DNA of 64,000 nucleotides from positions 8,339-72,338 of the forward strand of contig JBEKBN010000002.1 in NCBI GenBank assembly GCA_050015375.1, read 5' to 3'. The notes beneath the pieces are model-generated. The model did not search any database. It was not told the DNA's origin and saw only the letters and a list, made by a program, of their open reading frames with translations. This document shows positions 4,575 through 35,063 of the stretch, in pieces. Source of the DNA: Minisyncoccia bacterium. Its GTDB lineage: Bacteria > Patescibacteriota > Minisyncoccia > 2-02-FULL-40-12 > IGHO2-01-FULL-4-A. A program made the translations under genes and the position numbers. Positions within the stretch are counted from its first letter, which is position 1. Each line of letters opens with the position of its first letter.

Positions 4575-4594
4575 TTTTTTTGGAGAATCTGTGA

Positions 4595-4636
4595 GACACC
4601 GGTCGCGGGCTCCGCCCGCGACCGGTGTCTTTTTTT
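4595..4636 (+). terminator. Rho-independent terminator after rpsT. It is partly bidirectional and overlaps the ftsW stop.
   Basis: A perfect 16-bp stem (gacaccggtcgcgggc / gcccgcgaccggtgtc) with loop tcc is followed by ttttttt. Confidence 0.8.
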
Positions 4637-12632: not shown

Positions 12633-13034
12633 ATGCAATTAGGGTTTTCAAAAGTGCTCAAAACTCGGCTAATTAAATACTTAGCCGAAAAATATTCAGT
12701 CATTGTATCTTCGGAAAAAGCCGAAGAATTTTTGCGTTCTCTTGCCGACCTCTTTTTGGCTTTTTCTGATTCGGAAGATTTAGGTTCGGATAACTCTTTT
12801 TTCAACGCCCTGCAGGAACCGGTCGCGCCTCTCGTCGGCTTCCGCCGATTCGGGCTGACCACCGCCTCATTGCCTCGCTTGCCATTTGCTCGCTCGGCAA
12901 CATTCCGGCGTTTGATTCCTTATGCGAGCCAAGCAGTTGGCTCGCTCAGGGCGCAAAAGATAAAACCGGATATAATCCGGTTTTATCTTTTGATGTCCGC
13001 CCTGAAGGAATCGAACCTTCAACCTCTTCCTTAA
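12633..13034 (+). CDS. Small acidic protein, copy 2 of the duplicated module. Its divergent Arg/Leu-rich C-terminal extension reads into the tRNA-Lys gene, so the 3' end is uncertain.
   Basis: MQLGFSKVLKTRLIKYLAEKYSVIVSSEKAEEFLRSLADLFLAFSDSE...SFFNALQEPVAPL. The conserved part is ~70 aa. The frame stays open to 13034. Confidence 0.45.
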   Translation: MQLGFSKVLKTRLIKYLAEKYSVIVSSEKAEEFLRSLADLFLAFSDSEDLGSDNSFFNALQEPVAPLVGFRRFGLTTASLPRLPFARSATFRRLIPYASQAVGSLRAQKIKPDIIRFYLLMSALKESNLQPLP

Positions 13035-13068
13035 AAGGGAATTGCTCTACCAATTGAGCTAAGGGCGG
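12996..13068 (-). tRNA. tRNA-Lys (anticodon UUU)
   Basis: By my own fold the gene is 73 nt. The acceptor stem is CCGCCCT/AGGGCGG, with U8. The D-arm is GCTC-AATTGGTA-GAGC, nearly identical to E. coli tRNA-Lys. The anticodon loop is CTTTTAA. The T-arm is GAAGG-TTCGATT-CCTTC. The discriminator is A. No CCA is encoded. Confidence 0.85.
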
Positions 13069-14557: not shown

Positions 14558-16228
14558 TTATTTCTTCAACGACTCATCCAATATCTTCCTCAGCCCCTCG
14601 ACATCGATCTCGGGTTTGGGTTTTGGAGCGGCTGGCGGCCGGGGAGACGCGGACTGATTCGGAACCGGATTTGAAGCGCCGCTTTGAGTCGGTCGTTCTT
14701 CAATTTTCTTGCCTTTGAAATCCACCGCTCCCCGCTTGAACGCCTCATCCAGCGACACCGACGGCGGAGTTGTCGGCTCAGCGGAAGTCCGTCTGACAAA
14801 TGGCCGGTTGTTGTAATTGTTGTCTTGTCTTCGCGGTTGATTCTGGCCCCGATAATCATCCCGCGGCCGATTATCATTTTGTGATCTATATTCGTTCTCC
14901 GATCTTTTTGGATATGACTGATTCGTCGCCATGGCCGATTCCATCGGTCCGTACCATTTCTCAATATTTTTTTCAACGTCATCTACCGGCATGGCGTTAT
15001 GAGTCCGGGAATATTCAATGATTTTTTCGCGGTTGCTTTCTGGCAATTTCGGTGGCGTGTCAATGGTCATTGCCGAGAAAGCCCGCGAAGCGATGCCGTC
15101 AATGAGAAGTTTTATGTAAATTTGCCTTTTACCGAGATTGACGATATCGGTGGCCAAGAATTCGGGCGACAATTCTTTTTCTAAAAGTTCGGCATCCTCG
15201 GCGCCAACCCGGAAACTGATGATCGTGCCGACATTGCCGAAGATCGCGTCCCTGACGGTCTCGTCGAGCTGGGCGACATATTGATGGGCGACAATTAAAC
15301 TCAAATGATATTTTCTGGCTTCGGATAAAATATTAGCGAATGACGAGGTGGCGAAATTCTGGAACTCGTCAACGATCAAAACAAAATCCGTTCTTTCTTT
15401 TTCCGGAATGTCCACCCGCGACATGGCCGCCAGCTGGAGTTTGGTGATGATCAGGGCGCCAAGCAAACGCGAAGCGTCTTCGCCGATCCGGCCCTTGGAA
15501 ATATTGACCAAGAGGATCTTGCCTTGGTCCATTATCTCGCGCATATCAATGGTGGATTTCGGCTGGCCGACGATATTCCTGATAAGAGCCGAGGAAGTGA
15601 ATTGACCGACTTTGTTCTGGATCGCCGCTGTGGCTTCGGTGGCGAATTTGTCGGCATATTTGGCGAATTCCTGGGTCCAAAAGGCCTTGACCGTCGGGTC
15701 TTTCAATTGGGCGACGACGTAATTGCGGTAATCTTTTTCGGCAAGCATCCGGTTGATACCGAGTAGCGTCGCGTCCGGTGTTTCTAAAAGCGCCAAGATC
15801 GTATTATTCAAAATATATTCCATTCTCGGCGACCAGACATCGATCCAGATCTTTTTGAAAACGTTCATCACGCCGTCGGCGACAAGGTGGCGTTTATCGG
15901 GGTCAACCTGTTCCATGACATTGAAAGCGACCGGAAATTTCAGATCTGCCGGGTTGATATAAATAACGTCTTTTATCCTTTCTTCGGGAATGTAGTCCAA
16001 AAGATCCTCAACCGGGTCGCCGTGGGGATCGATGAAGCCGACTCCCCTTCCGGCCTGGATATCCTGAATGGCGAATATTTTTTCAAGTTCCGACTTGCCG
16101 AGGCCGGTCTTGCCGATAATGTAGACGTGGCGCCGGCGGTCGTCCATTTTTATACCAAAAGGCACTTTATTATTTCTAAAGTTGGTCTCGCCGAACAAAA
16201 CTATATCGTTGTCGTTGGTTTGAGCCAT
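14558..16228 (-). CDS. FtsK/HerA-superfamily P-loop ATPase, TraD/VirD4-like (type IV secretion coupling-protein-like), with a disordered Q/N/R/P-rich tail
   Basis: Walker A is GKTGLGKS. Walker B is VLIVDEFQNF. The protein is ~440 aa plus a low-complexity C-terminus. It is paired with the membrane protein at 16232-17500, a pairing seen in CPR genomes. Confidence 0.65.
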   Translation of the reverse strand: MAQTNDNDIVLFGETNFRNNKVPFGIKMDDRRRHVYIIGKTGLGKSELEKIFAIQDIQAGRGVGFIDPHGDPVEDLLDYIPEERIKDVIYINPADLKFPVAFNVMEQVDPDKRHLVADGVMNVFKKIWIDVWSPRMEYILNNTILALLETPDATLLGINRMLAEKDYRNYVVAQLKDPTVKAFWTQEFAKYADKFATEATAAIQNKVGQFTSSALIRNIVGQPKSTIDMREIMDQGKILLVNISKGRIGEDASRLLGALIITKLQLAAMSRVDIPEKERTDFVLIVDEFQNFATSSFANILSEARKYHLSLIVAHQYVAQLDETVRDAIFGNVGTIISFRVGAEDAELLEKELSPEFLATDIVNLGKRQIYIKLLIDGIASRAFSAMTIDTPPKLPESNREKIIEYSRTHNAMPVDDVEKNIEKWYGPMESAMATNQSYPKRSENEYRSQNDNRPRDDYRGQNQPRRQDNNYNNRPFVRRTSAEPTTPPSVSLDEAFKRGAVDFKGKKIEERPTQSGASNPVPNQSASPRPPAAPKPKPEIDVEGLRKILDESLKK

Positions 16229-16231
16229 AAT

Positions 16232-17500
16232 TTACTGCGGAAGTCCCGCCGGGGGTTGGCCTTTTTTGGCTTCGACTCTCGGGAAAGCCGGAGCGCGCAA
16301 ACCGATGCCGGGCAAATGCCACAGGGTCGCTAATTCCTCGGTATTCAAAAGAACGACATCCTTGATGAAAGTCCGCTCGCGGTATTTTCGGTAAATTCTG
16401 ATCTTGCGTCTCAGTTCCTGCCATTTCCAGAAAAACCCTTTGTTGGACGGGAATACTTGATAAAGAATTCCCTTGGCCAAGGACTCGGTCTTCGGATTTG
16501 GTTTGAAAGAGTTCATGTTGTTGGCGTAAAGTTGTTTGAACATGCCGATAACCGAGGTGACCCGGGCGCGGTTGAACAATTCCTTTCGGGCGACATACAG
16601 GAAACGGACATCGGCTTTGAACCCAAGTTTGGATATTTTATTCTCGACTTGCTCCAAAATATCTCGCTGGCCGGGGGTTAATTTCTGGACATTGAATTCC
16701 TGCTTCTCATCTTTTTTTTCGGCTTGCGGAACCTGAAAAACATTTTCTTCGATAAAATCCATCGTCTTATGCAAGGCATTGGGTTCGACTTTGACTTTTT
16801 TGCCTGTGATTTTGTCGATAATTTTTTGGGCATCTTCGATGATCTTTTTGCCGCCGGTCGGCCGGATGAGAAATTGCAACCAGACATGCTCGCCGGGCTG
16901 GGTCGAGCTCAAGGTTTCGGCCAAAGGCGCCAAGGGATCGGTTCGTTTGAATTCGTCTTTTCCGCTTTCTTCCTCGAAATAGGGATAGGTTCTCAAAGGA
17001 TAAGCGTTGTCGTTGATAAAAACGAGGTCGGTGCCATAAAGATCGTAATCATCGTTGGGCAAGATCCTCGGCAAATATTTGGTGTAATCCTCGACTTCTT
17101 TTATTTCGGCATCGGGATACTGGGCGAAAACCACATGCTCAACGAGGGAACGGAAATTCTCGGTCACCCGGATCAAAAAACTAATTTCACCGCCGTTGCC
17201 GACGATCTCGAATGAATAAAAATTCGGAACCTCGCCTTTGAAAAATCTTTTCTTCCACTTGACCGGCAAATAGGAAGCGTGGAGGCCGGCAAAAATATTT
17301 TCAGCGATCTTGGGACTTTTTTGGACATCGGGCGGCGGTTTTATTTCCAGTAAAACCCACTTCAAACTCAAGAGATACTTCTGGGTCACATAAACCAAAT
17401 AACCGGTGATCGTACCGGTAACCAAAAGGATCGGGACATAAATCCACCAATATGCGCCCAGGATCGAGAAAGCGGTTTTAAGTGGACTTAGAAAATCCAA
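16232..17500 (-). CDS. Membrane-anchored partner protein of the TraD-like ATPase (conserved hypothetical)
   Basis: There is an N-terminal TM (AYWWIYVPILLVTGTITGYLVYV) followed by a soluble domain. There is a 3-nt gap to the upstream ATPase gene, so the two are probably co-transcribed. Confidence 0.55.
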   Translation of the reverse strand: MDFLSPLKTAFSILGAYWWIYVPILLVTGTITGYLVYVTQKYLLSLKWVLLEIKPPPDVQKSPKIAENIFAGLHASYLPVKWKKRFFKGEVPNFYSFEIVGNGGEISFLIRVTENFRSLVEHVVFAQYPDAEIKEVEDYTKYLPRILPNDDYDLYGTDLVFINDNAYPLRTYPYFEEESGKDEFKRTDPLAPLAETLSSTQPGEHVWLQFLIRPTGGKKIIEDAQKIIDKITGKKVKVEPNALHKTMDFIEENVFQVPQAEKKDEKQEFNVQKLTPGQRDILEQVENKISKLGFKADVRFLYVARKELFNRARVTSVIGMFKQLYANNMNSFKPNPKTESLAKGILYQVFPSNKGFFWKWQELRRKIRIYRKYRERTFIKDVVLLNTEELATLWHLPGIGLRAPAFPRVEAKKGQPPAGLPQ

Positions 17501-25951: not shown

Positions 25952-27409
25952 CTACTCATCCGGCAGTTTTTCTTTTGTCGTATGGGGTTTTTGTTGTTCG
26001 ATCCATTCTTTCACAAAAAGCGTCGCCCGGACATCGTCTTCGTTATATTTCAATATTTTGTCGAGGATCTTTTTGTCGCCGGTTTCCAGCCACTGGTCAT
26101 ACCAGACCACCGACTCGGCGCCGCCGGCATCCTCGGCCTGCCATTTGAAACCAAGATATTGAGCGATGTCTTTCAAGCTGTAAAAATACAAGGGCAAAAC
26201 CGCCGCCTCAATGGCCACTCGGTGAAGGTCAATTGTGTGGTCGCGGAATTTTTCCTGCAATTTCAGGGAAATTCCGTATTTGTTTGACAACCGGTCAAAA
26301 ACTTCCCTTTCATAAAACGAATAATGATAAATCACGAAATCCTCCAGCGATTCCAGATAATCAAGAAATTGATTCCAAATGTCTTGTTCTTTTTGATTAT
26401 CTTTTGCTAGGAAGTATTTGTACTCCGGTTTCGCGGCACTGGTCTTGACCAGTAGTCCCAGAAGATAATCAATCCCCCGCGTTGGATCGGATTCAATATC
26501 AAAATAGATCTCAGTTTTGACTTTGGGCAATTCGGTTTTCTTAAGAATTATCGGCTCGCCCGACATTAAAACATTCGCCTGATTATGAAAACGCAGAACT
26601 TTATCAAACGGCCAATCCTCGAACTTCACTCGAAAATCATTGAGCTCCATGTCGGCGAGTTCTTTGACCGTGTGGATTCCGGCTTCGTAGAGACGACGCT
26701 GGTCGGCTTGGGATAATTTGTAGATGAGCGAAACATCATTGCAACCCTCGGCTTCCTCGACGCACATGTTGTACCACGGCGAATGCTTGCAACCCGATTT
26801 CAGAAACGGCGACGGTTTCTCACCGTCAAGAATTCTCTCAATGGTTTCGCGGGTCAGGTTGAAATAATCCAGAAAGTCATCAATGATAAACGACCGTTCC
26901 TCGCCGTCGGTGTTGATAATATATGCTTCGCGCGGCAAAATCCCCTGAAGTCGTTCCAGAATCAAAGAATAGAAAACCAGCTGGAATTTGTACTCGTCGC
27001 GGATTTCTTTTGTGCTTTTGATGTCATAGACGACATAGTAGTGGTCGCCGAAATTGGAAGTCATGCCTTTTTCCACCGGTCGGGCTTCTAAAAGATCAGG
27101 CATACCGACCCAGTGCTGATCCATCAGCACGCCATGATAAATATTTTTGCCCTGCTTCATTAGCTCAACGGTGGTGAAAAAGGATTCATCCAGATCTTTG
27201 GTCAATTCGGGTGGGATTTCTTCAAAATAGCGCGATCTTAGAACTTCGCGCTCGTGGCGGAGGCCATGTTTGTATATCATATCCAAAAGCGGGGCGGGCT
27301 TGCCTTTTTTGGACGGGTCGCCATAAATGTCGTACCAGATCCAATGCGGACATTGGAAAAATCGGTAGAAATGTTCTCCGGTTAACTTATAGTTTTTAGC
27401 GGCAGGCAT
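25952..27409 (-). CDS. RecB-family nuclease, TM0106-like (PD-(D/E)xK N-terminal domain plus RNase-H-like C-terminal domain)
   Basis: The N-terminus has Cys-rich motifs (FFQCPHWIWY; ...SGCKHSPWYNMC). The C-terminus EIYFDIESDP...YHYSFYEREVF is typical of RNase-H-fold exonuclease domains in this family. Confidence 0.5.
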   Translation of the reverse strand: MPAAKNYKLTGEHFYRFFQCPHWIWYDIYGDPSKKGKPAPLLDMIYKHGLRHEREVLRSRYFEEIPPELTKDLDESFFTTVELMKQGKNIYHGVLMDQHWVGMPDLLEARPVEKGMTSNFGDHYYVVYDIKSTKEIRDEYKFQLVFYSLILERLQGILPREAYIINTDGEERSFIIDDFLDYFNLTRETIERILDGEKPSPFLKSGCKHSPWYNMCVEEAEGCNDVSLIYKLSQADQRRLYEAGIHTVKELADMELNDFRVKFEDWPFDKVLRFHNQANVLMSGEPIILKKTELPKVKTEIYFDIESDPTRGIDYLLGLLVKTSAAKPEYKYFLAKDNQKEQDIWNQFLDYLESLEDFVIYHYSFYEREVFDRLSNKYGISLKLQEKFRDHTIDLHRVAIEAAVLPLYFYSLKDIAQYLGFKWQAEDAGGAESVVWYDQWLETGDKKILDKILKYNEDDVRATLFVKEWIEQQKPHTTKEKLPDE

Positions 27410-31724: not shown

Positions 31725-34535
31725 TTATTTCCTGTGATACGGGGCATTTATCAACCCGCATTTTTTCCATTTGCGGCCGGAACCGCAGGGACAGGGGTCA
31801 TTGCGGCCGGGTTCTTTTTGACCACTTGATATTACGGTTTGATTCTGGTTTTGATTTGCGCGATTCATAACTCCCGATTCTTGATTCGCAATATCCGGTT
31901 TTCTTTCGTCCATAGCAACTTTTCGAACCGGTTGCTGAACGGGACCGATTTTGTAAATAATATTTGCCACTTGATTTCCGATGGCCGATTGGAGTTCGTT
32001 GAATAATTTTTGGCCTTCGATCTTGTATTCGACAAGCGGGTCGCGCTGGCCGTAAGCCCGCAAACGCACCGAGTCGCGAAGATATTCCATTTGTTCAAGA
32101 TGGTCCACCCAAATCTCGTCAATCACCCGCAACATCAGCATCCGCTCAAGATTCCGCATGCCTTCCTCGCCAAGTTGTTTTTCCTTTTCGGCATAAGTCA
32201 AATCGGCGATCTGGGTCAAAAACTCGCGAATTTTTTCCCGGTCATCGGTTTTCGCGACTTCAATTATTTTCCCCATACCGCCATCATCAACCGGAATCAT
32301 CATTTTGAAATCTTCAGCGATTTCTTTGGCATGGTTCCTTTCATCAATTCCTTCGGAAGGCAAATCGAAATGGGAGTTAACGATCTTATCAATATTATCA
32401 TCAATATAGCCAACAATTTTTTCTTTAACATCTTTTGATCCAAGAATTTCATTTCTCAAACCGTAAATCGCCGTCCGATGCTTATTCATGACATCATCGT
32501 ACTCAAGAACGTATTTTCTGATGTCAAAATTATTGCCTTCGACTTTGGTCTGGGCTTGTTCAATGGCGCGGGAGATGAGCCGGTTTTCAATGGCATCGTC
32601 TTCGCCGACGCCAAGGCGTTCCATCAGATTTTTCAAGCGGTCACCGCCAAAAATCCTGATAAGTTCGTCCTCCGCCGAAACGAAAAATTGCGAACTGCCC
32701 GGATCGCCTTGACGGCCGGAACGGCCGCGAAGTTGGTTGTCTATCCGGCGAGCTTCGTGGCGTTCGGTGCCGATGACATGCAAACCGCCCGTCTCGATAA
32801 CTTTTTTCGCTTCGTCCGCCGAAGGCGGATTGCCGCCGAGAATTATATCCACACCCCGGCCGGCCATATTCGTCGCCACGGTCACAGCGCCAACATGACC
32901 CGCTTGGGCGATTATTTCGCCTTCCTGCTCATGGTTTTTGGCATTGAGCACTTTGTGTGGCACGCCTTCATTATTCAAATATGCCGACAAGATCTCATTT
33001 TTGGAAATTGACGTTGTTCCGACAAGTACCGGTTGGCCGCTGTCGTGGCGCTCTTTGACTTCGCGGGCGACGGCTTTCATTTTTCCTTCTTCGGTTTTGT
33101 AGATGCGATCGGCCTCGTCGGCGCGGATCATCGGTTTGTTGGTCGGCACTGAAATCACTTCCAGTTTGTAGACCTTGTGGAATTCCTCGGCCGATGTCTG
33201 GGCGGTACCGGTCATGCCGGCCAATTTGCCGTAAAGACGGAAATAGTTTTGGAAAGTGATCGTCGCCAGCGTTTTTGATTCCTTTTGGACCAAAACATTT
33301 TCTTTGGCTTCGACGGCCTGGTGCAAACCGCCCGACCAGCGTCGTCCGGGCATAAGCCGGCCGGTGAATTCATCAACAATGATAACTTCGCCATTTTTGA
33401 CGACATAATCCTTGTCACGATGGAACAAGATATTGGCTTTGAGCGCTTGCTCCAGCTGGTGGACATAACGCGTCCCGCCTTCTTCATAAATATTTTTAAC
33501 ATTGAGCATTCTTTCGACTTTCTCAATGCCTTTTTCGGTGATGGAAACGGCTTTCAATTTTTCATCAACGGTGTAATCTTCTTCCTTCGTTAGCCGGGGC
33601 GTGATCTTAGAAAATGTCTCGTAAAGCTGGGTTGATTCCATATCCGGAGCCGAAATTATCAAAGGCGTCCGGGCTTCATCGATCAAAATGGAGTCAATTT
33701 CGTCAACGATGGCAAAATTATGTCCTTTGGCTTGCGACTTTTCCAGTGAATTGTAGGCCATGTTATCGCGAAGATAATCAAAACCGTATTCGTTGTTGGT
33801 GCCATAAGTTATATCCGCCAAATACGCTTCACGCCGTGTCACCGGCCGCAAAAACTCATGAATGACGCGAAACCCACCAGTGATGTCTCTCGTTTTATCA
33901 AGTGCGTCTTCCTTCTCGCCAGTTTTTGAATTATGAATCACGAATTCTGAATTATGATCTTTTTCTTCTTGATTCATGATTCCTGATTCATGATTCCTTC
34001 CATGACTTGGGTCGTATAAATACGACGCCTCATGATTCAAAACACCTATGGTCAGTCCGAGCGCGTCATATATCTGCCCCATCCAAACCGCGTCTCTGCG
34101 GGAAAGATAATCGTTGACCGTGACCAGGTGGACGCCAAGGCCTGTGAGCGCGTTCAAATATGCCGGAAGGGTAGCGACAAGGGTTTTGCCTTCTCCGGTT
34201 TTCATTTCAGAAATATTTCCGGCGTGCAAAACCATTCCGCCGATAAGTTGGACGTCAAAGTGCCGCTGACCGAGAGTCCGTTTTGACGCTTCCCTCACTG
34301 CCGCAAAGGCCTCGGGTAAAATATCATCCAATGTTTCACCCCCACCACTCATGTTTGAGTGTGGGGGTGAACCGTCAGATAATCTTTTTTTAAATTCGTC
34401 AGTTTTATTTTTTAATTCCTCGCGTGAAAAAAGCTCGAACTTGGGTTCGAGTTCATTGATAGCCGCCACTTGGTCTTCCAGTTGCCTCACGGCGCGTAAA
34501 TTCGCGTCGCCGAATATTTTTGAAATAAAAGACAT
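31725..34535 (-). CDS. secA: Preprotein translocase ATPase SecA
   Basis: The DEAD-motor motifs are present. The C-terminal zinc finger is CPCGSGRKWKKC. There are two lineage-specific insertions: SPPHSNMSGGG at codons 56-66, and a low-complexity HESGIMNQEEKDHNSEFVIHNS block. Confidence 0.95.
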   Translation of the reverse strand: MSFISKIFGDANLRAVRQLEDQVAAINELEPKFELFSREELKNKTDEFKKRLSDGSPPHSNMSGGGETLDDILPEAFAAVREASKRTLGQRHFDVQLIGGMVLHAGNISEMKTGEGKTLVATLPAYLNALTGLGVHLVTVNDYLSRRDAVWMGQIYDALGLTIGVLNHEASYLYDPSHGRNHESGIMNQEEKDHNSEFVIHNSKTGEKEDALDKTRDITGGFRVIHEFLRPVTRREAYLADITYGTNNEYGFDYLRDNMAYNSLEKSQAKGHNFAIVDEIDSILIDEARTPLIISAPDMESTQLYETFSKITPRLTKEEDYTVDEKLKAVSITEKGIEKVERMLNVKNIYEEGGTRYVHQLEQALKANILFHRDKDYVVKNGEVIIVDEFTGRLMPGRRWSGGLHQAVEAKENVLVQKESKTLATITFQNYFRLYGKLAGMTGTAQTSAEEFHKVYKLEVISVPTNKPMIRADEADRIYKTEEGKMKAVAREVKERHDSGQPVLVGTTSISKNEILSAYLNNEGVPHKVLNAKNHEQEGEIIAQAGHVGAVTVATNMAGRGVDIILGGNPPSADEAKKVIETGGLHVIGTERHEARRIDNQLRGRSGRQGDPGSSQFFVSAEDELIRIFGGDRLKNLMERLGVGEDDAIENRLISRAIEQAQTKVEGNNFDIRKYVLEYDDVMNKHRTAIYGLRNEILGSKDVKEKIVGYIDDNIDKIVNSHFDLPSEGIDERNHAKEIAEDFKMMIPVDDGGMGKIIEVAKTDDREKIREFLTQIADLTYAEKEKQLGEEGMRNLERMLMLRVIDEIWVDHLEQMEYLRDSVRLRAYGQRDPLVEYKIEGQKLFNELQSAIGNQVANIIYKIGPVQQPVRKVAMDERKPDIANQESGVMNRANQNQNQTVISSGQKEPGRNDPCPCGSGRKWKKCGLINAPYHRK
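34337..34369. repeat. Palindromic mini-element copy (b), in-frame inside secA
   Basis: The arms are cacccccaccactca and tgagtgtgggggtg. The element encodes SPPHSNMSGGG, an insertion relative to canonical SecA between RLxxG and xLxxxLPEAFA. Confidence 0.7.
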
Positions 34536-34539
34536 CTAT

Positions 34540-34902
34540 TTAACTTCTCCTTTCTTTTTCAGACCTTTTTTCTTTGAACTTTTTTATTTGTCTTTCGATC
34601 TCGTCGCGAACACGGTCAATGGCAACATGCGGATCGTTGTGTTCATAAGTTGCCCGCATCAAATTTTTTCCCATTTTCAAATTCACCTCAGCGTAGAAAA
34701 CATCACCCTCGTGATGATGCCGCGACGGCCGGCTGACCTCGACCCGAGCTTCGATGAGATCTTTATTCGGCTTGCCCTCACACTCAAGATTTGAGTGTGA
34801 GGGTGAACTCAAAAACTTTGCGATCGACCCAATCTTCTCATCAACATAATCCCTTATCGCCGGCGTCAACTCTAAATTCTTCGCGTGAAGTATGATTTTC
34901 AT
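34540..34902 (-). CDS. hpf: Ribosome hibernation promoting factor / RaiA family
   Basis: MKIILHAKNLELTPAIRDYVDEKI... is an S30AE-family opening. The insertion SSPSHSNLECEG is encoded by the palindromic element. Confidence 0.8.
   Translation of the reverse strand: MKIILHAKNLELTPAIRDYVDEKIGSIAKFLSSPSHSNLECEGKPNKDLIEARVEVSRPSRHHHEGDVFYAEVNLKMGKNLMRATYEHNDPHVAIDRVRDEIERQIKKFKEKRSEKERRS
34775..34803. repeat. Palindromic mini-element copy (c), in-frame inside hpf
   Basis: A perfect 13-bp inverted repeat, ccctcacactcaa / ttgagtgtgaggg, encodes PSHSNLECEG. Confidence 0.7.
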
Positions 34903-35063
34903 AAGGTTATTTTAGCATAATATTTAGCGAGTGCCAACCTCTAGAAATTACATGACTTGACTATACATCATCCCCGTGGTATCTTGCAATCAGCACCTAA
35001 ACAACCTACAACCCGCTTATCCATCGTGGAATGACGGGAAGAGAAGTGAGAAGGAGTTACGAA

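What the first reader, a model, noticed from the sequence alone, without database searches (positions are those of the whole stretch)
34337..34803. Palindromic mini-element inserted in-frame into two essential genes (secA and hpf), like Rickettsia palindromic elements, with a third copy beside the IS110-like gene
Three copies of a ~33-42-bp palindrome are present, with consensus ...GTT(T)CACCCCCAC(C)ACTCA-nnn(n)-TGAGTGTGGGGGTGAAC. They are at 23348-23377 (intergenic), 34337-34369 and 34775-34803. Copy (b) lies inside secA codons 56-66 and encodes SPPHSNMSGGG, exactly where canonical SecA has no residues. Copy (c) lies inside hpf codons 34-43 and encodes PSHSNLECEG in a loop of the RaiA fold. 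Both keep the reading frame. In-frame proliferation of a palindromic repeat into ORFs is well known for RPEs in Rickettsia and is otherwise rare. Because the same element flanks an IS110-like gene, the recombinase may mobilise the element or use it as an insertion target.
Basis: seen in the sequence. Interest (0 to 1): 0.8.

Follow-up and report, generated by a model that had tools for sequence, protein, structure and literature searches.

The report
Palindromic mini-transposon inside essential genes
A 28-29-bp perfectly palindromic DNA element that behaves like a miniature transposon (it carries a 4-bp target duplication and is present or absent between sister strains) sits in frame inside secA and hpf of this ultra-small CPR bacterium, and the same element occurs across CPR lineages inside many other housekeeping genes; the neighbouring "IS110-like" gene is an unrelated TIGR-Tas RNA-guided system.

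Summary
Three copies share a 16-mer (none expected by chance). Two add exactly 11 residues, to SecA and to HPF.

The mobile-element reading is supported and turns out broader than proposed.
- The core CCCCCACACTCA-TGCA-TGAGTGTGGGGG occurs in 7 CPR species genomes and in more than 113 metagenome stretches.
- 32 of 84 copies carry a perfect 4-bp direct flank repeat of the form YNNR; 4 are expected. Among copies with an exact consensus core the figure is 21 of 32.
- Three clean filled/empty pairs show the target 4-mer once in the empty site.
- Sister strains differ by 33-nt presence/absence in hpf and secA.
- In-frame copies also sit in rsmA, holA (three copies), holB, folD (two sites), typA, tgt, nfo and glycosyltransferase genes.
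- 28 + 4 = 32 nt breaks the reading frame. Surviving coding copies carry one extra nucleotide in the loop, in an arm, or downstream (rsmA).

The proposed IS110 link is not supported. That gene is a TasR-like protein flanked by a stem-loop TIGR array, and three of its five homologous loci lack the palindrome.

The mobilising enzyme was not found. The target duplication favours a staggered-cut (DDE-type) transposase over a hairpin-binding RAYT. I class this as a new variant of the MITE/REP/RPE kind, apparently undescribed.

The parts
34339..34367 (.). Copy b of the palindromic element. The core is 29 nt, with one extra base in an arm, and the flanks are TTCA (34335-34338) and TGAA (34368-34371). 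It lies in frame in secA and encodes SPPHSNMSGGG (residues 56-66). The indel relative to the empty secA of L126 is 33 nt.
   Evidence: RNA hairpin -27.5 kcal/mol, z -5.5
34775..34803 (.). Copy c of the palindromic element. The core is 29 nt, the compensated variant CCCTCAC...GTGAGGG with a 5-nt centre, and the flanks are CTTG (34771-34774) and TGAA (34804-34807). It lies in frame in hpf. The 33-nt / 11-aa indel is absent from the sister strain L125. It falls in a disordered loop between helix 1 and strand 2.
   Evidence: hairpin -24.0 kcal/mol, z -5.6
23349..23376 (.). Copy a of the palindromic element. The core is 28 nt with one arm mismatch, and the flanks are TTTA (23345-23348) and TGAA (23377-23380). 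It is intergenic, 17 nt upstream of the tas start codon, between the upstream TIGR sub-array and the ribosome-binding site. It is present at the same place in L127 and absent in L128-L130.
   Evidence: hairpin -19.2 kcal/mol
31725..34535 (-). secA, the host gene of copy b.
   Evidence: Pfam SecA_DEAD, SecA_PP_bind, P-loop_SecA, SecA_SW and SEC-C; alignment to solved SecA structures
34540..34902 (-). hpf/raiA (ribosome hibernation factor), the host gene of copy c.
   Evidence: Pfam Ribosomal_S30AE, E 1e-18; homologue alignment A1; AF2 model
22326..23327 (-). It is a TasR-like TIGR-associated protein with a RuvC-like N-terminal domain and a Nop/IS110 C-terminal domain. It is not part of the palindromic element; it is listed because the finding linked the two.
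   Evidence: weak Transposase_20 hit only; only 5 homologues found; profile hit to 9mty_A at E 1e-9; Foldseek top hits are TIGR-TasR 9mty, then IS621
21536..22325 (-). Downstream TIGR stem-loop array of about 11 units with a period of about 72 nt. Each unit has a variable outer stem closed by GCGG/CCGUC, two unpaired segments of about 10-12 nt, and an inner UCCA..UGGA hairpin. An intrinsic terminator at 21510-21531 follows it.
   Evidence: architecture as described in PMC12045711
23429..23787 (-). Upstream TIGR stem-loop array of about 5 units, preceded by a promoter-like site at 23790-23818.

Best explanation
The palindrome is a very small non-autonomous transposable element, which I call palA.

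Its canonical form is a 28-bp perfect palindrome: two 12-bp terminal inverted repeats, CCCCCACACTCA / TGAGTGTGGGGG, abutting a 4-bp centre that is usually TGCA.

Shown:
- It inserts at YNNR tetranucleotides and duplicates them, giving a 4-bp target-site duplication.
- It occurs at many non-orthologous sites within and between CPR (Patescibacteria/Minisyncoccota) genomes.
- It is polymorphic between sister strains.
- It has longer relatives (63-170 bp) with the same termini.

Inferred:
- It is moved in trans by a transposase that makes 4-nt staggered target cuts. A DDE-type enzyme of the IS5, IS1380 or piggyBac style is the most likely kind. I put about 0.5 on that sub-claim.
- A 28 + 4 = 32-nt insertion shifts the reading frame. 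The copies that persist inside genes are therefore the minority with one extra nucleotide. The extra base can be in the centre (29-nt cores, hence the 33-nt / 11-aa inserts in hpf), in an arm (secA), or a few bases downstream (rsmA).
- The G+C-rich arms translate without stop codons in two of three frames into Pro/Gly-rich peptides such as SPPHS..GG. These are tolerated in surface loops.
- Chimeric flanks such as TTCA-core-CAAG may be donor-derived 4-nt flaps retained on one side. This point is speculative.

The neighbouring tas gene and TIGR array form an independent system into whose leader one copy happened to insert.

The confidence of 0.8 applies to the statement that palA is a mobile element that duplicates its target and survives in genes when the frame is kept. 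It does not apply to the enzyme class.
For: Repeat and distribution:
- 3 copies in the window against 0 in shuffles.
- 7 of 7 species-genome hits are CPR taxa.
- Only 1 hit in 2.9 million viral contigs.

Target-site duplication:
- 32 of 84 dereplicated copies have identical 4-mers on both sides. Shuffled pairing gives 4.2 on average, maximum 11. Other duplication lengths score about 0.
- Direct identity holds at all four register positions, and the flank consensus is Y-N-W-R.
- 21 of 32 exact-consensus cores have a duplication against 11 of 52 diverged cores, Fisher p 8e-4. This is the age structure expected of a transposon.

Clean filled/empty pairs with the target 4-mer present once in the empty site:
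- hpf, L126 CGAG-core-CGAG against L125.
- L067 paralogues, TTCA.
- L081/L071 against L112/L010, CAAG.

Presence/absence between relatives:
- Window hpf+ secA+; L125 hpf- secA+; L126 hpf+ secA-.
- tas leader: window and L127 filled, L128-L130 empty.
- rsmA: 4 of the 120 closest homologues are filled.

In-frame copies in Pfam-verified genes: rsmA, holB, folD (two sites), typA, tgt, a family-2 glycosyltransferase, nfo, holA (three copies) and PMT_2.

Frame logic:
- 29-nt cores make up 10 of 17 coding copies but 8 of 80 non-coding copies, p 3.6e-5.
- The rsmA insertion is 32 nt plus a compensating +1, placed at different positions in L098/L011 and in L009.

Family structure:
- Longer elements share the termini and have 4-bp flank repeats.
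- Subfamilies have both arms changed in compensation: 19 observed against 0.5 expected.

Position in the proteins:
- The HPF insert has pLDDT below 50 and lies between helix 14-31 and strand 50-57.
- The SecA insert falls at an 11-residue gap relative to solved SecA structures.
Against: - No autonomous element or transposase bounded by these termini was found in 935 kb of flanking loci, nor among the 26 of the 55 long window ORFs that I scanned with Pfam.
- A 28-bp duplex is too short to loop into a conventional DDE paired-end complex (established knowledge). The physical mechanism is therefore unexplained.
- Most coding copies lack matching flanks. A recurrent TTCA-core-CAAG class (rsmA, typA, L080, window hpf) cannot be derived from a CAAG duplication by point mutation. 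The empty rsmA site has CAAG once and the filled site has TTCA on the other side.
- All three window copies share TGAA on one side. This suggests that 4 nt travel with the element.
- Sampling is biased. The collection patterns required near-perfect arms, so the palindromy statistics are inflated. The flank and centre statistics are not affected.
- For hpf the direction of change cannot be decided: gain in the window lineage or precise loss in L125.
Confidence: 0.8

Rival explanations
1. palA is a REP-like element moved as a single-stranded hairpin by an HUH tyrosine transposase, either a RAYT / IS200-like Y1 enzyme or an IS91-like Y2 enzyme. On this reading the flanking tetranucleotides are cleavage or target sites rather than a target-site duplication.
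For: - The element is a perfect hairpin of REP size.
- palA-bearing contigs L059/L041, L066 and L116 encode Y1_Tnp proteins. Those of L059/L041 and L116 are flanked by, and even interrupted in frame by, other perfect palindromes of 21-29 nt, palB and palC. RAYT-REP systems therefore do operate in these bacteria.
- The flank tetranucleotides come from a small set (CAAG, TGAA(C), TAAA, CGAG). From my own memory, this resembles the IS91 targets CAAG/GAAC.
- In rsmA and secA the element sits next to a pre-existing tetranucleotide that is not duplicated.
- One side of the element is constant within a genome: TGAA in all 3 window copies.
- A 28-bp substrate is physically easier for a hairpin-binding enzyme.
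Against: - Pristine copies have identical 4-mers on both sides in 66% of cases, although at least 6 different 4-mers are in use; about 5% identity is expected by chance. This is what a duplication gives. It is not what an invariant core without a guide sequence would give.
- Three empty sites contain the 4-mer exactly once.
- The RAYT-associated palB and palC show no flank repeats.
- No Y1 gene lies next to palA in about 110 loci, whereas RAYTs are normally flanked by their own REPs (PMC3116915).
Confidence: 0.2
2. The 28-bp palindromes are not themselves mobile. They are excision footprints: the two terminal 12-14 bp left behind, with the duplication intact, when a larger cut-and-paste transposon with the same ends leaves, as with P-element footprints.
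For: - The centre is the most variable part, with 2-7 nt and many sequences, like junctional diversity.
- The duplications are intact.
- Longer elements with the same 12-nt termini exist.
Against: - The identical centre TGCA occurs in 37 of 81 copies at unrelated sites.
- Whole compensated subfamilies (CCTA..TAGG, C4T) are present at several sites. This points to copying of the 28-bp unit.
- No full-length parent was seen in 935 kb.
- The longer relatives diverge from palA immediately after nucleotide 12.
Confidence: 0.1
3. One reading: the adjacent IS110-like recombinase mobilises the palindrome or uses it as an insertion target.
For: - One copy lies 17 nt upstream of the gene, and it is also there in the 76%-identical homologue L127.
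- IS110-family elements are known to target palindromic repeats (established knowledge).
Against: - The protein is TasR-like, inside a TIGR array, with a promoter-like site upstream and a terminator downstream. It has no IS ends.
- 3 of 5 homologous loci lack the palindrome.
- None of about 120 palA loci elsewhere carries a homologue.
- No spacer matches palA.
- The family has only 5 members in 5.8 billion proteins, while palA is widespread.
Confidence: 0.03
4. The palindrome is a non-mobile functional motif, such as a binding site for a dimeric protein, a Xer-like 11-6-11 recombination site, a DNA-uptake signal or a terminator, that arose or was conserved in place.
For: - It has an 11-6-11 architecture and perfect dyad symmetry including the centre.
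- It is conserved across classes.
- Some intergenic copies are followed by T-runs.
Against: - Target duplications and clean empty sites.
- Presence/absence between sister strains.
- Insertion into unrelated coding sequences at non-homologous positions.
- Never found as a solo half-site in the window.
- Density of about 1 per 20 kb, far below that of uptake sequences.
Confidence: 0.04

Closest known systems
Rickettsia palindromic elements (RPEs; Ogata et al. 2000, summarised in PMC10969869)
   Same: - Palindromic selfish repeats that proliferate into protein-coding genes of a reduced-genome, host-dependent bacterium.
- They stay in frame and add peptide segments at tolerated positions.
- No transposase is known for them.
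   Different: - RPEs are about 100-150 bp, come in about ten families, are confined to Rickettsia, and encode a conserved peptide of about 30-50 aa.
- palA is 28-29 bp and adds 11 aa.
- palA has a demonstrable 4-bp target duplication and recent presence/absence polymorphism.
- palA is shared almost unchanged across several CPR classes.
- There is no sequence similarity between the two.
REP / REPIN elements with RAYT transposases (PMC3116915, PMC3337134)
   Same: - Size (20-40 nt), a hairpin-forming palindrome and many dispersed copies.
- CPR contigs carrying palA also carry RAYT-like genes with their own palindromes.
   Different: - REPs are imperfect palindromes, overwhelmingly extragenic, have a conserved 5' tetranucleotide, flank their RAYT and make no target duplication.
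- palA is a perfect palindrome, has a 4-bp duplication, is not found next to a RAYT, and about 18% of sampled copies lie inside genes.
Bacterial MITEs (Correia/NEMIS, Nezha, Chunjie, QMITE and others; review PMC10969869)
   Same: - Terminal inverted repeats plus a target-site duplication that decays with age.
- No coding capacity.
- Subfamilies and length variants.
- Occasional in-frame intragenic copies.
   Different: - Known MITEs are typically about 50-500 bp and AT-rich, and most can be traced to a parent IS.
- palA consists of nothing but two abutted 12-bp ends, is G+C-rich at its tips, and has no identified parent.
piggyBac / IS1380-type and IS5-type DDE transposons (from my own knowledge, not tested here)
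   Same: - A 4-bp target duplication at a pseudo-palindromic YNNR site (piggyBac TTAA, IS5 YTAR).
- Element termini CCC...GGG, as in piggyBac.
- piggyBac excises precisely, which would fit the footprint-free empty alleles.
   Different: - No such transposase was found.
- The target is looser than TTAA.
- piggyBac is eukaryotic.
- The resemblance rests on end and duplication features only.
TIGR-Tas systems (Faure et al. 2025, PMC12045711), for the neighbouring gene only
   Same: - A TasR-like fold.
- Arrays both upstream and downstream of the gene, ending in a terminator.
- Stem-loop units with two short spacers.
- A CPR host.
   Different: - The family is very small and divergent: 5 members, and no Pfam hit above threshold.
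- Its units are about 62-72 nt with an inner UCCA/UGGA hairpin.
- Activity is untested.

Membership tests
MITE (non-autonomous TIR transposon) | Terminal inverted repeats | tested here: met
   The 12-nt arms CCCCCACACTCA / TGAGTGTGGGGG are present in all copies. Longer relatives share the same termini.
MITE (non-autonomous TIR transposon) | Target-site duplication, seen as direct repeats flanking young copies and present once in empty sites | tested here: met
   32 of 84 copies against 4.2 expected. 21 of 32 pristine cores. Three clean filled/empty pairs.
MITE (non-autonomous TIR transposon) | Multiple copies at non-homologous sites, with insertion polymorphism | tested here: met
   3 copies in the window and 5 in L091. 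hpf, secA, tas leader and rsmA are each filled in some relatives and empty in others.
MITE (non-autonomous TIR transposon) | A related autonomous IS or transposase with matching ends | tested here: not met
   None in 935 kb of loci or among the 26 window ORFs scanned.
Rickettsia palindromic elements | Sequence membership in an RPE family, a length of about 100-150 bp, and a Rickettsia host | tested here: not met
   The element is 28-29 bp and all identified hosts are CPR. Only the behaviour (in-frame spread) is shared.
REP/REPIN-RAYT | Cognate RAYT (Y1_Tnp) gene flanked by the repeats | tested here: not met
   An HMM of the three CPR RAYT-like proteins finds none next to palA in any locus or in the window. 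The RAYTs present in L059/L041 and L116 are flanked by different palindromes.
REP/REPIN-RAYT | Extragenic location and no target duplication | tested here: not met
   17 of 97 sampled copies are inside verified genes. A 4-bp duplication is present.
IS110 family insertion sequence (the adjacent gene) | A DEDD + Transposase_20 recombinase within a mobile unit with defined ends and a bridge RNA, present in multiple copies | tested here: not met
   Only a sub-threshold Transposase_20 hit. The best structural match is TasR. The gene is flanked by tandem stem-loop arrays rather than IS ends. It is single-copy in the window.
TIGR-Tas (the adjacent gene) | A Nop-domain Tas protein structurally like TasR | tested here: met
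   Foldseek hit to 9mty at E 5e-10, and a profile hit to 9mty_A at E 1e-9 over residues 181-332. The model has pLDDT 76.
TIGR-Tas (the adjacent gene) | An adjacent array of repeated units, each with two short spacers between box C/D-like motifs, in dual-repeat or stem-loop form, ending in a terminator | tested here: met
   About 16 units with a period of about 72 nt. Each folds with a variable outer stem and two unpaired segments of 10-12 nt. A terminator lies at 21510-21531. The same arrays occur in L127-L130. Criteria are from PMC12045711.
TIGR-Tas (the adjacent gene) | Processing into tigRNAs and RNA-guided DNA binding or cleavage | not testable with these tools
   This needs RNA-seq or biochemistry.

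The most novel reading that the evidence does not exclude
palA is the smallest transposable element yet recognised in bacteria: two abutted 12-bp ends, 28 bp in all. It has piggyBac-like signatures, namely CCC...GGG termini, a 4-bp YNNR duplication and footprint-free empty alleles. It is specific to the Candidate Phyla Radiation and is moved by a still unrecognised enzyme. That enzyme must handle a substrate too short for a normal synaptic complex, perhaps a hairpin or cruciform, or paired copies. palA repeatedly remodels surface loops of essential proteins (SecA, HolA, HolB, FolD, TypA, Tgt, RsmA), with frame restoration by +1 indels.
Probability: 0.35. Interest if true: 0.8.

Novelty: new variant of a known kind. 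Interest (0 to 1): 0.68.

Why it matters
CPR bacteria have tiny genomes and are thought to carry little mobile DNA. Here a selfish element is shown to be active recently enough to differ between co-occurring strains. It sits inside genes that cannot be lost, so insertional mutagenesis and rescue by a single-base indel is a live route of protein evolution in these organisms.

Practical consequences:
- The element is a ready-made marker for strain tracking.
- It is a likely cause of assembly breaks; Logan contig L002 starts inside copy a.
- It shows that an 11-residue Pro/Gly-rich insert persists at defined loop positions in SecA and HPF, which suggests it is tolerated there.
- Its 28-bp size poses a mechanistic puzzle, and solving it could reveal a new transposase or a compact insertion tool.

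The work also corrects an annotation. The 'IS110-like' gene is a divergent TIGR-Tas locus with a stem-loop array. This adds a CPR example to a family described only in 2025.

Tried and rejected
- Rfam and ARAGORN on the window and on ten palA loci. Nothing relevant was found, so palA and the 72-nt repeats are not known RNA families.
- Literature searches for the sequence itself, for CPR MITEs and for CPR REP/RAYT. No report was found.
- tblastn of the Tas protein and blastn of the TIGR array against the palA loci. No association.
- Search for solo arms and for distant inverted arm pairs, to find an autonomous parent. Only 63-170-bp relatives turned up.
- All-against-all clustering of 1065 ORFs from palA loci, to find a recurrent neighbour. 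Only housekeeping families and a RAYT-like family appeared, and the RAYT-like family proved to have its own palindromes.
- Viral contig scan. One hit in a G+C-rich context, so the element is not phage-borne.
- Test of TIGR spacers against palA. No match of 9 nt or more other than trivial self-overlap.
- Pfam on 26 of the 55 long window ORFs. No transposase.
- Quasi-palindrome 'flank flipping'. It explains secA (TTCA..TGAA), tgt, and the orthologous pairs L041/L105 and L071/L052. It does not explain the TTCA-core-CAAG class, which remains unexplained.
- My first automatic core-length tally was mis-registered. It was replaced.

Full report
**1.

- On the + strand they share the 16-mer TGAGTGTG(G/A)GGGTGAA.
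- That 16-mer occurs three times in the window. It occurred zero times in each of 100 dinucleotide-preserving shuffles.
- No solo half-site exists at up to 3 mismatches.

The host genes are confirmed.
- secA is 31725-34535 on the - strand, 936 aa, with the full SecA domain set.
- hpf is 34540-34902 on the - strand, 120 aa, Ribosomal_S30AE.
- The copies are read in frame as SPPHSNMSGGG (SecA residues 56-66) and PSHSNLECEG (HPF residues 34-43).
- Against E. coli SecA there is an 11-residue gap at exactly that point.
- In an AlphaFold model of HPF, residues 34-45 are an unstructured loop with pLDDT below 50, between helix 14-31 and strand 50-57.
- As RNA the three copies fold at -27.5, -24.0 and -19.2 kcal/mol, with z scores of -5.5, -5.6 and -3.5.

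The same sequences occur in three independent assemblies, so they are not artefacts. The organism is named 'Minisyncoccia bacterium' by NCBI. That class belongs to the CPR/Patescibacteria phylum Minisyncoccota.

**2. The element is not private to this genome**

- A strict pattern found seven matches among one genome for each of 185,579 species. All seven are CPR taxa: Saccharibacteria, Paceibacterota, Yanofskybacteria (two), Parcubacteria, and 'Patescibacteria group' (two).
Many are from groundwater.
- It found only one match in 2.9 million viral contigs.
- The canonical form is a 28-bp perfect palindrome, CCCCCACACTCA-TGCA-TGAGTGTGGGGG.
- 38 of 81 dereplicated copies are perfect palindromes, and 37 have the centre TGCA.

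The search patterns demanded near-perfect arms. Arm conservation is therefore partly imposed by the sampling. Flanks and centres were unconstrained.

**3. It carries the signatures of transposition**

Flank repeats:
- Identical 4-mers flank the core in 32 of 84 dereplicated copies.
- Shuffling the left-right pairing gives 4.2 on average, with a maximum of 11 in 2000 shuffles.
- Duplication lengths of 3, 5, 6, 7 and 8 score about zero.
- Identity holds at all four positions of the register. The flank consensus is Y-N-W-R.
- The common 4-mers are CAAG, TAAA, TCAA, TGAA, CGAG and TTAA.

Age structure:
- Copies with the exact consensus core have a perfect flank repeat in 21 of 32 cases.
- Diverged copies have one in 11 of 52 cases, p 8e-4.
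- This is what a transposon family should show.

Three clean filled/empty comparisons show the target 4-mer once in the empty site and twice in the filled one:
- hpf of L126 (CGAG-core-CGAG) against L125.
- Two paralogous sequences within L067, with a 32-nt gap and TTCA.
- L081/L071 against L112/L010, with CAAG.

Family structure:
- Longer elements of 63-170 bp share the 12-nt termini, and three of them (69-142 bp) have matching 4-bp flank repeats.
- There are subfamilies in which both arms have changed in compensation: CCCTCAC/GTGAGGG and CACCTA/TAGGTG. I count 19 compensated pairs against 0.5 expected.
- Orthologous copies sometimes have one flank flipped to its reverse complement, as in L041 against L105 and in L071 against L052. 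Quasi-palindrome correction by template switching would produce this. It also accounts for the TTCA..TGAA flanks in secA.

**4. Presence and absence between close relatives**

- The closest HPF homologue is P0003, on L125, from the same JGI sample that also contains the filled allele. It is 97% identical over the aligned residues and lacks exactly the 11 residues. A more distant homologue, P0002 on L126, has them.
- At the DNA level the window is hpf-filled and secA-filled. L125 is hpf-empty and secA-filled. L126 is hpf-filled and secA-empty. Each indel is 33 nt.
- The hpf copies of the window and of L126 share the rare C4T variant. They may therefore descend from one insertion that L125 later lost cleanly. 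I cannot decide the direction of change.

**5. In-frame spread into genes is general**

Spanning ORFs verified by Pfam show copies inside:
- rsmA (L009, L011, L098)
- holB (L035)
- folD at two different sites (L051, L053)
- typA (L057)
- tgt (L058)
- a family-2 glycosyltransferase (L089)
- nfo (L091)
- a PMT_2 protein (L072)
- three separate sites in one holA gene (L091)

About 17 of 97 sampled copies are coding. I would expect close to 90% for random insertion into such compact genomes (established knowledge of CPR coding density). Insertions into genes are therefore strongly filtered.

The filter is legible in the sequences.
- 28 + 4 = 32 nt shifts the frame.
- 29-nt cores, which give 33 nt, make up 10 of 17 coding copies but 8 of 80 non-coding copies, p 3.6e-5.
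- In secA the extra base is in an arm.
- In rsmA the core is 28 nt. Comparison with an empty orthologue (L132) shows a 32-nt insertion plus a compensating +1.
- That +1 lies 9-13 nt downstream in L098 and L011, which read ASRPQM in place of KPPDM. It lies immediately after the flank in L009, which reads ARPPKM.
- These are two different repairs of the same frameshift.

**6. What moves it is not established**

Points favouring a staggered-cut integrase, most likely a DDE transposase:
- True duplication of variable target 4-mers.
- The termini CCC...GGG, a 4-bp pseudo-palindromic target and clean empty alleles. These recall piggyBac/IS1380 and IS5 (my own knowledge, untested).

Points against, or unexplained:
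- No transposase with these ends was found in 935 kb of flanking sequence or among the window ORFs scanned.
- 28 bp is too short for a conventional paired-end complex.
- A recurrent flank combination, TTCA-core-CAAG, occurs in rsmA, typA, L080 and the window hpf. It cannot come from a CAAG duplication by point mutation.
- All three window copies share TGAA on the same side.
- A piggyBac-like 4-nt donor flap retained on one side would explain these chimeric flanks. That is speculation.

The main rival is a hairpin-binding HUH enzyme.
- For it: palA-bearing contigs do encode RAYT-like Y1 transposases (L059/L041, L066, L116). Those of L059/L041 and L116 are flanked and even interrupted in frame by other perfect palindromes, palB and palC.
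- Against it: those palindromes lack flank repeats, and no RAYT lies beside palA.

**7. The 'IS110-like' gene is something else**

- ORF 22326-23327 has only five homologues among 5.8 billion proteins.
- It has only a sub-threshold Transposase_20 match.
- A profile of the five hits PDB 9mty_A at E 1e-9.
- The AlphaFold model (pLDDT 76) matches TIGR-TasR (9mty) best. The IS621 and ISCro4 bridge recombinases and TasH follow.

The surrounding repeats fit that assignment.
- The gene is flanked on both sides by about 72-nt periodic repeats.
- Each repeat folds as a variable outer stem closed by GCGG/CCGUC, two unpaired segments of 10-12 nt, and an inner UCCA/UGGA hairpin.
- A promoter-like site lies upstream and an intrinsic terminator lies downstream.
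- This is the stem-loop form of TIGR array described for TIGR-Tas systems, which are frequent in CPR (PMC12045711).
- All four other homologous loci have such arrays. Only the window and L127 have palA in the leader.
- No spacer matches palA.

The juxtaposition is therefore an ordinary intergenic insertion.

**8. Comparison with known elements, and novelty**

- In behaviour palA is closest to Rickettsia palindromic elements, which also spread in frame through genes. It shares neither sequence, size nor host with them, and unlike them it shows a clear target duplication.
- It meets the MITE criteria except for a known parent.
- It fails the REP/RAYT criteria that I could test.
- I found no report of this sequence, or of MITE/REP-type elements in CPR, in the searchable literature. 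That library is incomplete.

I class palA as a new variant of a known kind. Its distinctive features are its minimal size, its perfect dyad symmetry, its near-identity across CPR classes and the visible frame-repair logic.

Noticed in passing
window 21510-23818 (- strand): A complete TIGR-Tas locus. In order on the - strand: a promoter-like site at 23790-23818; about 5 stem-loop units; the palindrome; a TasR-like gene at 22326-23327; about 11 more units; and a terminator at 21510-21531. The Tas family here is very small (5 members), and no Pfam model reaches its threshold.
   Followed up: yes
L059 8983-9728 (also L041); L116 6355-7126; L025, L027: Two further families of short perfect palindromes. 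palB is TGTTGAAGTC-A-GACTTCAACA and palC is ATGTCAAGGCG-N-CGCCTTGACAT. They flank RAYT-like Y1_Tnp genes and also sit in frame inside those genes, encoding LKSDFN and MSRRRLDI. They have no flank duplications. REP-RAYT-type systems thus seem to exist in CPR, and I found no report of that.
   Followed up: partly
window 21197-21400 (- strand): A strongly structured non-coding stretch of about 200 nt between the TIGR terminator and secD. Its folding energy is -89.6 kcal/mol, z -5.25. It contains a 20-bp stem (21231-21284) nested in a 14-bp stem (21213-21331) and ends in a terminator-like hairpin. No Rfam family matches above noise.
   Followed up: partly
L091 11636-12349: One holA (DNA polymerase III delta) gene carries three separate in-frame copies of the element. 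The same 13.7-kb contig has five copies in all, including one in nfo.
   Followed up: partly
L041 10250-10560, L073, L081, L105, L052, L071; empty versions at L112 8497-8663 and L010 5096-5212: In one group of loci the element sits inside a larger conserved inverted-repeat structure, CCAAAATAACAGGT ... ACCTATTATTTTGG, which encloses a second G+C-rich hairpin. This structure occurs in different genomic contexts, and L112 and L010 carry it without palA. It may be a larger MITE or an unannotated structured RNA. There is no Rfam hit.
   Followed up: partly
window 25952-27409 (-); L129 78-1538: A 485-aa protein with a C-terminal RNase_H_2 (PF13482) domain lies close upstream of the tas locus both in the window and in L129. 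The two proteins are 78% identical, whereas the Tas proteins are 60% identical. This may be plain synteny or an accessory nuclease.
   Followed up: partly
window 34290-34910 compared with L125: The window and its hpf-empty sister strain are only 91% identical at the DNA level here. The differences fall in patches: 9 in the 20 nt just downstream of the hpf insert, and two further clusters upstream of the secA insert. This suggests mosaic recombination between strains rather than simple clonal divergence.
   Followed up: partly
window 14558-16228 (-): An ORF with the TrwB/TraG-type type IV coupling-protein domains TrwB_AAD_bind and TraG-D_C. It lies next to an unannotated 422-aa ORF (16232-17500) and a gene containing sigma-70 region 4.
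   Followed up: no
window 12954-12992 and 4594-4630: Perfect 18-bp and 17-bp hairpins with 3-nt loops. The first abuts tRNA-Lys (12995-13068). They are probably terminators and are unrelated to palA.
   Followed up: no
L131 582-609 (IMG/VR contig): The only viral-contig copy of the palindrome, AATT-core-AATT, lies in a G+C-rich context unlike CPR DNA.
   Followed up: no
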